DNA of 64,000 nucleotides from Nitrososphaerales archaeon. Its GTDB lineage: Archaea > Thermoproteota > Nitrososphaeria > Nitrososphaerales > UBA213. The position numbers and the translations under genes are program-made. Of this stretch, positions 36,995 through 40,109 are shown one piece after another (the stretch's first letter is position 1; every line of letters starts with the position of its first letter). The stretch is from positions 9,953-73,952 of the forward strand of contig JBHICH010000001.1 in assembly GCA_046759465.1 (NCBI GenBank), in the 5' to 3' direction. The notes beneath the pieces are model-generated. The model saw only the letters and a list, made by a program, of their open reading frames with translations. It was not told the DNA's origin and did not search any database.

Positions 36995-37654
36995 TTGGAT
37001 TTAGAGAAGTTCACACGAGATGTGAACGATGTTGCGTACAAGACTTGCGTGAACGAAGACCAGATCGTTCTGCAACGGGTTAACTTTGTGAAGCAGAAAC
37101 TGATCGACCTCTACAAGAGAAATTTGGTCAAGATAAACCATTCGGTAATGGAGATGGTGTGTGCAAAGCATCTGATAAAATATGGCTATGAAGTGGATGT
37201 TGAACGACAGTTACCAGACTCTCTTGTTTGCGACATTTATGCAACAAAAGGTGAAGGCAGTTTCATAGTGGAAATAGAAACTGGTTTTACCCCGCCAGAG
37301 CATGCTCTTGACCCTGTAGGATACTACGTTGCTAGAATTGAAAGCAAGATAGCAAGATACAGCCAGTTTGCAAGCAAGTTTGCACTGGCAACACCCCTAG
37401 TAAGCGTTCTTCCGATTCCTGAGATATTCCTGAAACCGCCTCGAACTAGAAAGACTAGCGAAATAAAGAAGGTCAAAGAATTGTGTGATAAATACTACAA
37501 AAACCCACCCATAAATGAAAGCGAAATTTTGAACGGAAGGCTTCATTCCATCTATATAATGAATATAGATGATGCAATTGTTAACGAACTTGACCCCGAA
37601 TCCTATCAAGAACTTATAAGAGACCTTAGCACTTCTTCAGGATTTGAGGTATAA
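36995..37654 (+). CDS. Hypothetical protein with a PD-(D/E)xK nuclease-like core
   Basis: 219 aa, TTG start. EMVCAKHLIKYGYEVDVERQLPDSLVCDIYATKGEGSFIVEIETG parallels the helix(E)-strand-strand(D)-strand(ExK) layout of Hjc-like nucleases, but reads E-I-E-T instead of E-x-K. Confidence 0.45.
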   Translation: MDLEKFTRDVNDVAYKTCVNEDQIVLQRVNFVKQKLIDLYKRNLVKINHSVMEMVCAKHLIKYGYEVDVERQLPDSLVCDIYATKGEGSFIVEIETGFTPPEHALDPVGYYVARIESKIARYSQFASKFALATPLVSVLPIPEIFLKPPRTRKTSEIKKVKELCDKYYKNPPINESEILNGRLHSIYIMNIDDAIVNELDPESYQELIRDLSTSSGFEV

Positions 37655-37679
37655 CCATTGAAAAGAATCGCATAAAGAC

Positions 37680-37690
37680 TTAAATCTAAT
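37680..37690 (+). promoter_or_regulatory. TATA-like box for the 229-nt RNA candidate
   Basis: TTAAATCTAAT is centred ~24 nt upstream of G37708. It resembles the box upstream of tRNA-Phe (TTAAATTT). Confidence 0.35.
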
Positions 37691-37707
37691 GTTGCCGGTA
37701 TTTCTCT

Positions 37708-37936
37708 GCCATCCAGTCGAAAAAGAAGATGGTTCATCGCTTGAGCTTGGAGATTGGGGGAAGCCTTGATCTTCTGTGCAGAACGATGGGCGGCTGTGCC
37801 TCATCGCGGAAACTGTGGGGCAACTCACAGGAGTCTCATGGAGCACTAACGCGGGCGAACTGATGCATCGCGTGAGACGAAAAACTACGGCAACGGTGTA
37901 GACAGAAAACCACATCGTCTTCGAGTCTTGGATGGC
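37708..37936 (+). ncRNA. Candidate structured RNA (~229 nt), class unknown
   Basis: G+C-rich island between convergent genes. The 5'/3' closing helix is GCCATCCAG/TTGGATGGC, several internal helices can be drawn, TTTATTT follows immediately downstream, and there is no credible ORF. Confidence 0.45.
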
Positions 37937-37941
37937 TTTAT

Positions 37942-38508
37942 TTACGTATAGTATCCCGCGTGGGATTCTCTTCTTTTCTTTAGATATAGCATTATTCTTC
38001 CAGCGGCAAAACCGAAAACGAAACCACCGATATGCGCAAAGTATGCTATGTTGGCCATTCCGAATAATGCGAAAGGTACTTGCGCAATCAGCCAAAATAT
38101 TGCAAGCCTATCTCCCAATGCAGCTGCGATACCTATAACCCCTGATATGGCGCCTGATGCGCCAACCAATGGTACGTCTATTCCATTTCCAGTTATCAAA
38201 GCAAAAGCTGTATGCATACCAGAACCGGCAAACCCAGAAAGGAAGTAAATTAAGGCGAATCTTTTCGAACCAATATGTGGTTCGAGTATTCTACCAAGTG
38301 TGGTAAGTGCGATCATATTGAAGGCTATGTGCGCGATGTTCGCATGCAGGAACATTGATGAAACTGAGGATACCACGAACAATGCTGGGTTGTTTATTAT
38401 CGATATGGGCACTAGAGCAAAACCATAGATTCGATCTTCAGATACATACGTTGCGATAAACACTAAAACATTGATAGTCAACAGTGCTATAGTTACCGGC
38501 GCCCACAT
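37942..38508 (-). CDS. Rhomboid family intramembrane serine protease
   Basis: Six TM helices. GASGAISGVIG is the catalytic GxSG, and AHIGGFVFG carries the catalytic His. Confidence 0.85.
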   Translation of the reverse strand: MWAPVTIALLTINVLVFIATYVSEDRIYGFALVPISIINNPALFVVSSVSSMFLHANIAHIAFNMIALTTLGRILEPHIGSKRFALIYFLSGFAGSGMHTAFALITGNGIDVPLVGASGAISGVIGIAAALGDRLAIFWLIAQVPFALFGMANIAYFAHIGGFVFGFAAGRIMLYLKKRRESHAGYYT

Positions 38509-38609: not shown

Positions 38610-40109
38610 TTAACCATTCATAAATCTATCAAGATTGTACTTTTCTTTGCCCATCATTCTGTTGATCTTCTTGATCATTCCTTTCGCCTCCTTCATCTTC
38701 CTCTTGCTTATCCAGTAATATGCTTCGTCCAAAGTGTCCTTTGTTATCAGCACAACGACCCTTCCTGGAGCCTTTCTACCTGTCCTTCCCTTTCTCTGCA
38801 GGAATCTGATCGCACTTGGCACATTGTCGTAAAACACAACCAAGTTACATTCCGATATATCAAGACCTTCCTCTCCAACCTGGGTTGCAACAAGTACTTT
38901 GTATTCGCCTTCCCTGAATTTATCCACAACATCTACCTGTGCCTTTTGTTTTAACCCTCTCTCGCCAGCTTTGCCAATAAGGTAAGCTGCATTGAAACCC
39001 ATCTCTTTGAGCTTATTGTATAGAACCTCTACAGAATCTCTATAGCTTGTAAATACCAGAATCTTGCTATCTATGCCTATTAATATCTCCTTTAACTTGT
39101 CCACCTTAGGATGTTCTATGCCACTTATTTCTGCCCCTCTGGCAAATTCGTAAGCAGTCTTGAAATTTGAATCTAGAAACAGGTCCCTGATGCCAATCCC
39201 TCTTTTATCCTTAAGACGATCGCAGAACTTCAAGAACGACGTTACGCCTTGAGTATCAAGTATATTCAACGCGTGGCTGATCCTTATCGCAGTGTATAGT
39301 GCCTTGCTAGCACTTCTGTTTACGTACAGATAATCCCTAGCTCTAATCAACTCGCTTGTGGAAACCTTACTGCTACGCAAGAGTCCCTTCTCTCTCAATT
39401 CGTTCGTCCTAACTTCAAGTGCAGACATTAATCTTGATCTAATCTGTTTTAGAACTACAGGCATCTCGACATGGATCCATTCTATATTGGTTTCATGAAT
39501 GTAGGGTTTTACATCATCACTTGTTTCATCCCTCATCTCGATCTTCTTTATTCCCAAGTTGTTCACCATCTCGCTTGCCCTGACACGGTCGCTTGGAACT
39601 GTAGCGGTCATTCCGACTATCCTTGGATTGTTTTGCTTGATCAGAGACGCAATACTACAGTAAGCGTAGTCTCCTATCGCTCGATGAGCTTCATCAAATA
39701 TTACTAGTGAAAAATCTTCATGTTTGATGACACGCCGATCAAGATCATTCAAAGTTATCTGCGGTGTGGCGCAAATCGCGCTATTATCCCACGCCTTTTT
39801 CCTCTCGCTCATAACATCCTCTCCAGTGACCATTGAAATGTCGAATATCTGTAGATGATTTTTCAAAAATTCGTAGTGCTGATTAACCAAAACTCTTGTA
39901 GGTGCTAAAAACAGGCATCTTTTCTTACTCTTCGCTAACGTTTCTGCAATCACAATCAAGGCAATCGTTGTCTTTCCCAATCCAGTAGGAAGCACGACGA
40001 GAGTGTTATTTTGCAATGCGATATTCGCCAGGGAAATCTGATAATCACGCCTTTCGATGCTTCTTGGCTTTATCATTTTGTGTTCGATCCACGCTTTTTC
40101 GTTGCTCAA
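38610..40109 (-). CDS. Hef/FANCM/Mph1-like SF2 helicase (helicase domains only, no XPF nuclease domain)
   Basis: RDYQ...VLPTGLGKT (motif I), FDEAH (II), MTAT (III), and a C-terminal RecA-like domain with QRKGRTGR (VI). The protein ends after ~499 aa. Confidence 0.85.
   Translation of the reverse strand: MSNEKAWIEHKMIKPRSIERRDYQISLANIALQNNTLVVLPTGLGKTTIALIVIAETLAKSKKRCLFLAPTRVLVNQHYEFLKNHLQIFDISMVTGEDVMSERKKAWDNSAICATPQITLNDLDRRVIKHEDFSLVIFDEAHRAIGDYAYCSIASLIKQNNPRIVGMTATVPSDRVRASEMVNNLGIKKIEMRDETSDDVKPYIHETNIEWIHVEMPVVLKQIRSRLMSALEVRTNELREKGLLRSSKVSTSELIRARDYLYVNRSASKALYTAIRISHALNILDTQGVTSFLKFCDRLKDKRGIGIRDLFLDSNFKTAYEFARGAEISGIEHPKVDKLKEILIGIDSKILVFTSYRDSVEVLYNKLKEMGFNAAYLIGKAGERGLKQKAQVDVVDKFREGEYKVLVATQVGEEGLDISECNLVVFYDNVPSAIRFLQRKGRTGRKAPGRVVVLITKDTLDEAYYWISKRKMKEAKGMIKKINRMMGKEKYNLDRFMNG

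What the first reader, a model, noticed from the sequence alone, without database searches (positions are those of the whole stretch)
37708..37936. Unclassified ~229-nt G+C-rich structured RNA candidate with its own TATA box and T-rich stop
The 287-bp gap between two convergent genes (36995-37654 on plus, rhomboid 37942-38508 on minus) is visibly G+C-richer than its AT-rich flanks. I did not compute this. G+C enrichment is a classic ncRNA signature in AT-rich archaeal genomes. On the plus strand, TTAAATCTAAT (37680-37690) lies ~25 nt upstream of G37708. GCCATCCAG (37708-37716) pairs with TTGGATGGC (37928-37936), giving 8 Watson-Crick pairs plus 1 GU, and TTTATTT follows immediately. I can draw these further helices by hand. 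GAAGATGGT 37725-37733 with ATCGTCTTC 37914-37922. CTCATCGCG 37800-37808 with CGCGTGAG 37869-37876, with one bulged T. CTGTG 37813-37817 with CACAG 37826-37830. CTACG 37885-37889 with TGTAG 37897-37901. There is also a competing long-range helix, CGATGGG 37784-37790 with CCACATCG 37910-37917. The pentamer CATCG occurs four times (37735, 37802, 37866, 37913). Two of these extend to near-identical 11-mers, CATCGCTTGAG and CATCGCGTGAG. The minus-strand reading contains two internal T5 runs, so the plus strand is favoured. The longest plus-strand ORF is 26 codons. I could not fit the element to RNase P: there is no GAGGAAAGTCC-type CR-I, only an ACAGAAAA that resembles CR-V. It also does not fit SRP RNA (no GNAR-capped helix 8 with AGCA loop), a tRNA, or C/D or H/ACA boxes.
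Basis: partly seen in the sequence, partly recalled or inferred. Interest (0 to 1): 0.6.

Follow-up and report, generated by a model that had tools for sequence, protein, structure and literature searches.

The report
New conserved structured RNA of Nitrososphaerota
The G+C-rich gap holds a real gene for a ~229-nucleotide folded non-coding RNA with its own archaeal promoter; it belongs to a family found across ammonia-oxidising archaea and their relatives, matches no catalogued RNA family, and has no known job.

Summary
Window 37708-37936 (+) is G+C-rich (0.51-0.56, flanks 0.35-0.38) and folds better than all 200 shuffles (z = -3.5). Homologues of 208-288 nt occur in at least six lineages of Nitrososphaerota, including cultivated Ca. 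Nitrososphaera gargensis. Conservation starts and stops exactly at the paired 5' and 3' ends.

In 87 distinct sequences, 92% of cells in the 56 modelled pairs are canonical and 50 pairs show compensatory changes (slid controls: 30-41% and at most 26). The fold is a terminal stem P1, a purine-rich joiner, a long-range helix Hx and three hairpin domains. Near-invariant purine-rich strands surround the junction. A BRE/TATA element at about -36 to -24 and an A/T-rich element near -10 are conserved upstream.

No Rfam 15 family matches, even at E <= 10. It is not RNase P RNA: six loci carry both this RNA and a canonical archaeal RNase P RNA about 4 kb apart. It lacks the SRP, C/D, H/ACA and tRNA hallmarks, is not a leader of any consistent gene, and shows no coding signal.

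Function is unknown. My best inference is a stable, trans-acting, probably protein-bound RNA whose junction core is the working part.

The parts
37672..37687 (+). Promoter: A-rich BRE-like stretch (ATAAAG, 37672-37677) and TATA box TTAAATCT (37680-37687, about -28 to -21)
   Evidence: In 84 distinct upstream regions from all clades, A is 0.58-0.71 at -36..-33 and A+T is 0.85-0.95 at -29..-25.
37697..37704 (+). Proximal A/T-rich promoter element (about -11 to -4)
   Evidence: A+T is 0.74-0.93 at -11..-4 across all clades.
37708..37936 (+). The RNA gene, 229 nt
   Evidence: R1 score 169 bits; covariation.
37708..37716 (+). P1, 5' strand. It pairs with 37928-37936.
   Evidence: All 10 model pairs show compensatory changes in 87 sequences; 95.9% of cells are paired.
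37717..37724 (+). J1, a purine-rich joiner (UCGAAAAA). C37718 is near-invariant and is predicted to pair with G37923.
   Evidence: C12-G438 is CG in 83 of 87 sequences; conserved columns; hexamer analysis.
37725..37733 (+). Hx, 5' strand (GAAGAUGGU). It pairs with 37914-37922.
   Evidence: The helix keeps complementarity with different sequences in each clade (5.2 of 6 pairs, against 4.3 with random partners).
37734..37789 (+). H1, a long hairpin with a large internal loop and apical loop GAAG (37760-37763). The AAG of the loop is near-invariant.
   Evidence: Helices 3-6 are 93-98% paired, except the weak 2-bp middle helix at 70%..
37791..37851 (+). H2, a long hairpin with internal loops and the GNRA loop GCAA (37820-37823)
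   Evidence: Helices 7-12; per-clade folds. Clade D replaces the tip with a longer stem capped by UACG.
37853..37911 (+). H3 domain. GGGCGAAC (37853-37860) opens it and GAAAACC (37905-37911) closes it. The near-invariant GGC/GCC helix is flanked by an all-A internal loop.
   Evidence: G301-C425 and G302-C424 are GC in 86 of 87; C303-G423 is CG in 81 of 87. The window has A37909 at that position, a C.A mismatch.
37905..37915 (+). Most conserved single-stranded motif, GAAA(G/A)CCACAU, which leads into the 3' strand of Hx
   Evidence: It is conserved in the 25 genome-derived members, which were not selected by this motif.
37914..37922 (+). Hx, 3' strand (AUCGUCUUC)
37923..37927 (+). GAGUC joiner; the G and A are near-invariant
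   Evidence: Columns 438 and 439 are at least 95% conserved.
37928..37936 (+). P1, 3' strand
37937..37943 (+). T-rich stretch TTTATTT, a possible termination signal
   Evidence: Present in clade A relatives but not in clades B, C and F.

Best explanation
37708-37936 (+) is a stand-alone gene for a stable, highly structured non-coding RNA. It belongs to a family of 208-288-nt RNAs conserved across Nitrososphaerota and absent from Rfam 15.

Shown:
- It is transcribable from its own BRE/TATA promoter, with the start at or next to the first base of P1.
- The 5' and 3' ends pair (P1). A purine-rich joiner and a second long-range helix (Hx) close a multi-helix junction, from which three hairpin domains (H1, H2, H3) radiate.
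- The helices vary by compensatory change. About 25 nucleotides stay near-invariant. They lie in the strands around the junction (C-GAAA.., GAU, GGGCNAAC, GAAAGCCACAU, GA) and in the H1 loop (AAG).

Inferred: the RNA acts in trans as a folded molecule, most probably as the core of a ribonucleoprotein, and the junction strands form the binding or active site. It is not a leader, a terminator or an antisense regulator of a neighbouring gene. What it binds or does remains unknown.
For: - Composition and fold: G+C island; fold z = -3.5.
- Sharp boundaries: conservation starts and stops at the P1 ends.
- Homologues: directly downstream of the same 219-aa gene in Nitrosomirales-like, Nitrosocaldus and a third clade. 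Model R1 finds full-length copies in Nitrososphaera-type loci (44-60 bits, E 1e-11 to 1e-16) and Nitrosotalea-type loci. It also finds copies in 57 of the first 80 metagenome loci, including a high-G+C clade, and in N. gargensis CP002408.1 at 1090766-1091002 (61.8 bits).
- Covariation, 13 sequences aligned by MAFFT: 96% paired, 36 of 56 pairs compensatory, slid controls at most 14.
- Covariation, 87 distinct sequences: 92% paired, 50 of 56 compensatory, slid controls at most 26, 0 of 500 shuffles as high.
- Independent check: most of the top-ranked mutual-information column pairs are the modelled pairs, including the top 14.
- Strand: G.U 10.4% against A.C 2.6%.
- Promoter: conserved in all clades.
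- Not coding: no periodicity.
- Not a known family: no Rfam hit.
- Independent gene: its position and orientation relative to neighbours differ between clades.
Against: - No transcript data were available, so expression, the exact ends and stability are all inferred.
- No protein partner or activity is identified.
- The 62 metagenome members were fished with a pattern built from three conserved motifs. Conservation of those motifs in that subset is therefore circular. Only the 25 genome-derived members are unbiased for them.
- Alignment A6 was fitted to the model, which favours its pairs. A3 was not fitted.
- Only 24 of 80 loci centred on the 219-aa gene carry the RNA within 3 kb. I could not show that it is present in every genome, for example in marine Nitrosopumilaceae.
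- The held literature is incomplete, so an earlier description cannot be excluded.
Confidence: 0.85

Rival explanations
1. It is a reduced RNase P RNA, like the minimal type T of Pyrobaculum: a catalytic domain without the specificity domain.
For: - Its size is similar to type T.
- A-rich strands flank a long-range helix, as J3/4 and J2/4 flank P4. If P2 and P3 were deleted, P4 would become a nested helix in exactly the position of Hx.
- There is an ACAGAAA string near the 3' end.
- Clade F has GAGGAAAGCC (12 of 87).
- Clades D and F share short strings with RNase P RNA.
- Canonical RNase P RNA lies in the same neighbourhood in Nitrososphaera.
Against: - Six loci carry both this RNA and a canonical RNaseP_arch hit of 178-183 bits: L008, L011, L014, L024, L079 and N. 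gargensis.
- No RNase P model matches at E <= 10.
- R1 does not align to RNase P RNA.
- Local similarity is marginal (z 2.4-2.9) and absent in clades A, B, C and E.
- The CR-I-like string sits at the 3' end, in a different structural context.
- There is no conserved bulged U in Hx.
- N. maritimus has a normal archaeal type A rnpB (PMC2996960).
Confidence: 0.03
2. It is the RNA partner or substrate of the neighbouring 219-aa PD-(D/E)XK-fold protein. The two would form a nuclease-RNA complex.
For: - The 219-aa gene is the only neighbour shared by all six clades.
- It keeps within about 1.3 kb of the RNA through at least four different arrangements (downstream same strand, upstream same strand, convergent, divergent), while other neighbours change.
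- The protein is specific to the same phylum.
- Its best fold match is a tRNA-cleaving CdiA-CT toxin.
Against: - 56 of 80 loci centred on the protein lack the RNA within 3 kb.
- Most soil Nitrososphaeraceae contigs that carry the RNA lack the protein within 3 kb.
- 80 of the loci were chosen through the protein, which biases the count.
- The fold matches are weak (TM 0.3-0.45) and are mostly DNA nucleases, including Bax1.
- The protein always sits beside an SF2 helicase, which suggests DNA repair.
- The 3HCDH gene is also syntenic in this region without any expected link.
Confidence: 0.1
3. It is a cis-acting element of a flanking mRNA: a structured 3' UTR or terminator of the 219-aa gene, or a riboswitch-like leader.
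For: In the window it lies 54 nt downstream of the 219-aa gene on the same strand and is followed by a T-rich run.
Against: - It has its own conserved BRE/TATA and -10 element.
- In Nitrososphaera it follows the 3HCDH gene on the other strand. In Nitrosotalea-type loci it is convergent with the 219-aa gene. In clade F it lies upstream of a phosphoribosyltransferase gene.
- In the window and in clade D nothing lies downstream on its strand.
- At 220-290 nt with about 56 conserved pairs, it is far more than a terminator needs.
Confidence: 0.03
4. It is a divergent SRP RNA, or a box C/D or H/ACA guide RNA.
For: The H1 loop GAAG fits GNAR and the H2 loop is GNRA, a loose echo of SRP helices 6 and 8. 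There is also a chance SNORD57 hit at E = 1.2.
Against: - No Archaea_SRP hit.
- The helix-8 core (GNAR followed by GRAGCA) occurs in 0 of 87 sequences.
- No terminal C/D boxes, and no ACA near the 3' end.
- The loops are not constant: AAAG, AAGG, and UACG in clade D.
Confidence: 0.01
5. It is protein-coding, for example the 152-aa minus-strand ORF 37637-38095 or a short plus-strand ORF.
For: A stop-free minus-strand frame spans the element in the window. The median antisense open stretch in the family is 72 codons.
Against: - Variation shows no three-base periodicity (0.79 / 0.81 / 0.81).
- Family members differ in length by amounts that are not multiples of three.
- Open stretches fall to 28 codons (sense) and 37 codons (antisense) in some members.
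- Change is dominated by compensatory pair changes.
Confidence: 0.01

Closest known systems
RNase P RNA, especially the minimal type T of Thermoproteaceae (Rfam RNaseP-T) and archaeal type A (RF00373)
   Same: - A housekeeping-type, stand-alone, G+C-rich structured RNA of 200-300 nt.
- Its 5' and 3' ends pair.
- A long-range helix is flanked by A-rich joiners.
- The conserved nucleotides concentrate in junction strands.
- It lies in the same gene neighbourhood as RNase P RNA in Nitrososphaera.
   Different: - No model match.
- No CR-I/CR-V P4 pseudoknot, and no P2 or P3.
- It coexists with a canonical RNase P RNA in the same genomes, so it cannot be that RNA.
RNase MRP RNA, the eukaryotic paralogue of RNase P RNA
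   Same: A second structured RNA of similar size living beside RNase P RNA in the same cell. This is the only precedent for an 'RNase P-like but not RNase P' reading.
   Different: There is no statistical sequence or model similarity to the P/MRP core. MRP is known only in eukaryotes. This is an analogy only.
Orphan large structured RNAs of bacteria (OLE, raiA, ROOL, GOLLD, HEARO)
   Same: Found by conservation and covariation, with a complex multi-helix fold, conserved unpaired core nucleotides, a lineage-wide distribution and no known function at discovery.
   Different: No homology (no Rfam hit). This one is archaeal and smaller than most of them. The link to a genomic partner protein is weak, unlike OLE with OapA or HEARO with IscB.
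Archaeal SRP (7S) RNA
   Same: A universal, stand-alone, G+C-rich RNA with paired ends and tetraloop-capped hairpins.
   Different: It is 70-80 nt shorter, has a four-way junction instead of the long helix 5, has no helix-8 SRP54 motif and matches no SRP model.
Hgc-type RNAs found as G+C islands in A+T-rich archaeal genomes (Klein et al. 2002; cited from my own knowledge)
   Same: The same discovery signature: a G+C-rich island in an A+T-rich genome.
   Different: Different sequences, sizes and lineages. No Rfam match to HgcC, HgcE, HgcF or HgcG.

Membership tests
Archaeal RNase P RNA (type A, M or T) | Significant match to the RNaseP_arch or RNaseP-T covariance models | tested here: not met
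   No hit at gathering scores in the window. No hit at E <= 10 on 37600-38000 or on four clade representatives. The same tool finds RNaseP_arch at 174-183 bits in related loci.
Archaeal RNase P RNA (type A, M or T) | CR-I (GAGGAAAGUCC) pairing with CR-V to form the P4 pseudoknot, with P2 and P3 present | tested here: not met
   RGGAAA[GC]UCC occurs in 0 of 87 sequences. GAGGAAAGCC occurs only in clade F, at the 3' end, where GCC pairs with GGC of H3. The topology is fully nested and mutual information shows no pseudoknot signal.
Archaeal RNase P RNA (type A, M or T) | It is the cell's RNase P RNA, one per genome | tested here: not met
   L008, L011, L014, L024, L079 and N. gargensis L201 each hold this RNA and a canonical RNase P RNA about 4 kb apart.
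Archaeal RNase P RNA (type A, M or T) | Cleaves pre-tRNA 5' leaders with Pop5, Rpp30, Rpp21 and Rpp29 | not testable with these tools
   This needs a biochemical assay.
Archaeal SRP RNA | Match to Archaea_SRP, and a helix 8 with a GNAR loop followed by the GRAGCA SRP54 site | tested here: not met
   No Rfam hit. The motif occurs in 0 of 87 sequences.
Box C/D and H/ACA guide RNAs | Terminal C (RUGAUGA) and D (CUGA) boxes, or hairpin-ACA units with ACA near the 3' end | tested here: not met
   D box near the 3' end in 0 of 87; ACA three nt from the end in 0 of 87; an internal UGAUGA in only 11 of 87. The only Rfam near-hit is SNORD57 at 16.5 bits against a gathering score of 47.
tRNA / tmRNA | Cloverleaf recognised by ARAGORN or the Rfam tRNA model | tested here: not met
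   No tRNA or tmRNA anywhere in the window.
Riboswitch or other cis-regulatory leader | Sits upstream of, and on the same strand as, a consistent class of regulated genes | tested here: not met
   The downstream context differs in every clade and is convergent in the window and in clade D. No riboswitch model matches.
New family proposed here (Nitrososphaerota four-way-junction RNA) | Conserved sequence and secondary structure supported by covariation | tested here: met
New family proposed here (Nitrososphaerota four-way-junction RNA) | Independent transcription unit with its own archaeal promoter | tested here: met
   BRE/TATA at about -36 to -24 and an A/T-rich element at -11 to -4 are conserved in 84 distinct upstream regions. 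This is sequence evidence only.
New family proposed here (Nitrososphaerota four-way-junction RNA) | A discrete, stable transcript of the predicted size in cells | not testable with these tools

The most novel reading that the evidence does not exclude
The RNA is the core of a so far unknown ribonucleoprotein or ribozyme common to Nitrososphaerota. In the boldest form, it is an ancient paralogue of the RNase P catalytic domain that lost P2 and P3, so that P4 became the nested helix Hx. That would make it an archaeal counterpart of eukaryotic RNase MRP, working beside the canonical RNase P RNA that lies 4 kb away in Nitrososphaera.
Probability: 0.06. Interest if true: 0.95.

Novelty: categorically new. 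Interest (0 to 1): 0.72.

Why it matters
Nitrososphaerota include the ammonia-oxidising archaea, among the most abundant microbes in soils and oceans. Their non-coding RNA repertoire is almost unexplored. Very few large structured RNAs without a known function are known from archaea.

This family is 208-288 nt long, has about 56 covarying base pairs, a near-invariant junction core and its own promoter, and is kept across lineages whose flanking protein is only 45% identical. An RNA conserved this way is almost certainly doing something basic. In the past, RNAs with this signature have turned out to be ribozymes, riboswitch-like sensors or cores of ribonucleoproteins.

It also gives annotators a new model. 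The region is currently empty in protein gene calls and is prone to spurious ORF calls. Finally, there is a cultivated organism, N. gargensis, in which the RNA can be tested directly.

Tried and rejected
- RNase P RNA was my first hypothesis once RNaseP_arch appeared near the same protein gene. I rejected it because the two RNAs co-occur, there are no model hits and the sequence similarity is only marginal and confined to two clades.
- SRP, C/D, H/ACA and tRNA were rejected on hallmark motifs.
- A kink-turn at the P1/Hx internal loop was considered by reading the alignment. The position that should be the essential G varies (A, U, G, C) and extra nucleotides separate the GA from P1. Rejected.
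- A cobalamin riboswitch was considered because of GCCAC and GGGAA strings. There is no model hit and the element is not in a leader position. Rejected.
- A register switch or triplex between the purine hexamer J1 and Hx: J1 pairs only slightly better than with random partners (3.8 against 3.3 of 6). Left open, not claimed.
- A pseudoknot search by mutual information found nothing beyond clade-level correlations.
- A viral copy: one pattern hit in IMG/VR was not a family member (7.8 bits).
- A broader covariance model could not be built. A family-wide HMM found no further copies near the 219-aa gene.
- Seven literature searches found no description.
- PDB sequence search for the 219-aa protein found nothing. 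The fold search gave only weak PD-(D/E)XK nuclease matches.

Full report
**What is in the window.** The 287-bp gap lies between a 219-aa gene (36995-37654, +) and a rhomboid protease gene (37942-38508, -; Pfam Rhomboid, E = 1e-24). It holds a G+C island: 0.51-0.56 in 100-nt windows, against 0.35-0.38 on either side. The plus strand of 37708-37936 folds at -84.2 kcal/mol. That is 3.5 standard deviations below dinucleotide shuffles, and none of 200 shuffles fold as well. The minus strand is less extreme (z = -2.55). ARAGORN finds no tRNA in the whole window. Rfam 15 finds no family at gathering scores in the whole window. With permissive filters and E <= 10 on 37600-38000, the only match is a chance SNORD57 hit (16.5 bits against a gathering score of 47).

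**Relatives.** The upstream 219-aa protein has no Pfam domain but has more than 4,000 homologues. All that carry an organism name are from Nitrososphaerota/Thaumarchaeota. I used an alignment of these to fetch 80 genome loci. The closest is a Ca. Nitrosomirales genome (83% protein identity).

- A single-sequence nhmmer search with the RNA found homologues directly downstream of that gene in the four closest loci. In the alignment, conservation starts exactly at GCCATCCAG and stops exactly at TTGGATGGC, and the flanks are unrelated.
- Reading the same intergenic gap in Nitrosocaldus and a third clade showed clearly homologous 219-222-nt RNAs.
- A covariance model built from these 13 sequences (R1) found full-length copies in Nitrososphaera-type loci (44-60 bits, E 1e-11 to 1e-16). 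It found weaker copies in Nitrosotalea-type loci (15-27 bits), which clade-specific HMMs confirmed.
- A pattern built from three conserved motifs pulled 120 metagenome stretches. R1 confirmed 57 of the first 80. These include a new high-G+C clade from peat soils, whose neighbouring proteins are labelled Nitrososphaerales. They also include a 288-nt variant on a contig whose antiporter is closest to 'Thermoprotei' and 'Nitrososphaerota' genome bins.
- The complete genome of cultivated Ca. Nitrososphaera gargensis Ga9.2 has a copy at CP002408.1 1090766-1091002, in a gap with no called protein gene (61.8 bits).
- No family member was found in viral contigs.

**Structure.** RNAalifold on the MAFFT alignment of 13 sequences predicts 56 pairs, 35 of them with compensatory changes.

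| Alignment | Cells paired | Slid controls | Pairs with change on both sides | Slid controls | Shuffles as high |
|---|---|---|---|---|---|
| 13 sequences, not fitted to a model | 96.0% | 32-43% | 36 | 6-14 | 0 of 500 on most measures |
| 87 distinct sequences, model-fitted | 92.1% | 30-41% | 50 of 56 | 19-26 | 0 of 500 |

Most of the top-ranked mutual-information column pairs are modelled pairs, including the top 14. Separate folds of each clade give the same architecture:
- P1 joins the two ends.
- A purine-rich joiner J1 follows.
- A second long-range helix, Hx, comes next.
- Three hairpin domains follow. H1 has the loop RAAG. H2 usually has a GNRA loop. H3 is closed by a near-invariant GGC/GCC helix next to an all-A internal loop.
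- Then come the motif GAAAGCCACAU, the 3' strand of Hx, a GA-containing joiner and the 3' strand of P1.

Hx is formed by different sequences in each clade: GAAGAUG/CGUCUUC, AGGAG/CUCCU, GGGAG/CUCCC, GAGGA-C/GUCUUC. G.U pairs (10.4%) far outnumber A.C (2.6%), so the plus strand is the RNA. The near-invariant nucleotides lie in the junction strands and the H1 loop. For the metagenome-derived members part of that conservation is circular, because they were selected by those motifs. The 25 genome-derived members show it independently.

**An independent gene.** Upstream of the first base of P1, 84 distinct sequences from all clades share three elements:
- an A-rich stretch at -36 to -33 (A = 0.58-0.71);
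- an A/T block at -29 to -25 (A+T = 0.85-0.95; TTTATAT, TTAAAT, TTTTTAT or TTTATAG);
- a second A/T-rich element at -11 to -4.

From general knowledge of archaeal promoters, this is the BRE/TATA plus proximal-element layout, with a start at about +1. In the window these are ATAAAG and TTAAATCT (37672-37687) and TATTT near -9. The 3' flank is T-rich in the window's clade but not in all clades.

The RNA's neighbours and orientation change between clades:
- downstream of the 219-aa gene on the same strand (window and clades B, C);
- just 3' of the 3-hydroxyacyl-CoA dehydrogenase gene on the opposite strand (Nitrososphaera);
- convergent with the 219-aa gene (Nitrosotalea type);
- upstream of a phosphoribosyltransferase gene (clade F).

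That excludes a leader, 3' UTR or terminator role. Variation shows no codon periodicity, so the 152-aa minus-strand ORF through the element is spurious.

**What it is not.** Rfam found canonical archaeal RNase P RNA about 1.9 kb downstream of the 219-aa gene in Nitrososphaera loci (174-183 bits). That made a reduced RNase P RNA the obvious hypothesis.

It fails. L008, L011, L014, L024, L079 and N. gargensis each carry both RNAs about 4 kb apart. R1 does not align to RNase P RNA. N. maritimus is reported to have a normal archaeal type A rnpB (PMC2996960).

Some short strings are shared: CGAAAGAGAGGAA and GCAAGGNCAAAC in clade D, and GAGGAAAGCC in clade F. Local alignment is only marginally above shuffles (z 2.4-2.9) in those two clades and not above them in clades A, B, C and E. 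I therefore treat this as composition or coincidence.

The SRP helix-8 motif, terminal C/D boxes and a 3' ACA box are all absent. Representatives of four clades have no Rfam match at E <= 10. Seven full-text literature searches found no description.

**The neighbouring protein.** The 219-aa protein gives a confident AlphaFold model (pLDDT 89.7). Its best PDB fold matches are PD-(D/E)XK nucleases: the CdiA-CT tRNase, XisH, SfsA and Bax1, all weak, with TM 0.3-0.45. It always sits next to an SF2 helicase. In the window that helicase is Hef/FANCM-like (1wp9, E = 4e-104). In N. gargensis it is ERCC3/XPB-like.

This gene is the only neighbour of the RNA shared by all six clades, and it stays within about 1.3 kb through four different arrangements. 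That is mild evidence for a link. Against it, 56 of 80 protein-centred loci lack the RNA within 3 kb, and most soil Nitrososphaeraceae contigs with the RNA lack the protein nearby. I rate a functional partnership at about 0.1.

**Mechanism.**
- Shown: a conserved gene with its own promoter elements; a multi-helix junction fold maintained by compensatory change; a near-invariant purine-rich junction core; independence from any particular neighbouring gene; distinctness from all Rfam families and from RNase P RNA.
- Inferred: the RNA is made as a discrete stable molecule and acts in trans through its fold. It is most likely the core of a ribonucleoprotein, and the junction strands form the binding or active site. 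This is the conservation pattern of RNase P RNA, SRP RNA and the bacterial orphan RNAs.
- Not known: its partners, substrates or chemistry.

**Verdict.** The element is one member of a phylum-wide, apparently undescribed class of structured RNA. I give confidence 0.85 that it is a genuine, independently transcribed structured non-coding RNA gene of a new family, and interest 0.72. The boldest reading still allowed is an RNase P-derived, MRP-like paralogue or a new ribozyme, at about 0.06.

Noticed in passing
window 36995-37654 (+): A 219-aa protein with no Pfam domain, specific to Nitrososphaerota (more than 4,000 homologues). It has a confident PD-(D/E)XK nuclease-like fold. It always lies beside an SF2 helicase: Hef/FANCM-like in the window (38610-40109) and ERCC3/XPB-like in N. 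gargensis. It may be an uncharacterised nuclease partner of these helicases, analogous to Bax1.
   Followed up: partly
L008 5556-5845; L011, L014, L024, L079; L201 12580-12860 (N. gargensis CP002408.1 1086602-1086882): In Nitrososphaera, canonical archaeal RNase P RNA lies about 1.9 kb downstream of the 219-aa gene, right after a Ribo_biogen_C (Tsr3-like) gene, and about 4 kb from the new RNA. The window has neither that gene nor an RNase P RNA at the matching place; DNA polymerase B follows the helicase there.
   Followed up: partly
window 37719-37730: The purine hexamer of joiner J1 (GAAAAA) is a near-repeat of the first six bases of the Hx 5' strand (GAAGAU). The two change together across clades (AGGAGA|AGGAGC, GGGAGA|GGGAGU, AGGAAA|AGGAUG). 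J1 could pair with the same 3' strand in an alternative register, but only weakly (3.8 of 6, against 3.3 with random partners). A conformational switch is possible but not shown.
   Followed up: partly
window 37909: The window's copy has A where 81 of 87 family members have G. This gives a C.A mismatch in the otherwise near-invariant GGC/GCC helix that closes H3.
   Followed up: no
L158 11090-11105 and other clade F loci; L012 228-241 (clade D): Clade F copies carry GAGGAAAGCC, one base short of the RNase P CR-I string, but at the 3' end. Clade D copies share CGAAAGAGAGGAA and GCAAGGNCAAAC with the RNase P RNA of the same genomes. The similarity is statistically marginal (z 2.4-2.9) and absent from the other clades.
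   Followed up: yes
window 37637-38095 (-): A 152-aa open frame runs antisense through the whole RNA and into the 3' end of the rhomboid gene. Gene callers could mistake it for a gene, but there is no coding signal in the family alignment.
   Followed up: yes
window 1-64000: No tRNA gene and no Rfam family at gathering score anywhere in 64 kb.
   Followed up: no
L158 10420-10851 (+) and L132 11594-12289 (-): In the high-G+C clade F, a small conserved ORF of 143-232 aa lies immediately upstream of the RNA on the same strand in 6 loci. Its sequence contains a D...ECE stretch that looks like a nuclease motif. I did not analyse it.
   Followed up: no
L147 980-1267: A 288-nt family variant with enlarged H2 and H3, on a hot-environment-type contig. 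Its antiporter is 86% identical to a 'Thermoprotei archaeon' protein and 57% to Nitrososphaerota proteins. This suggests the family reaches deep-branching relatives.
   Followed up: partly
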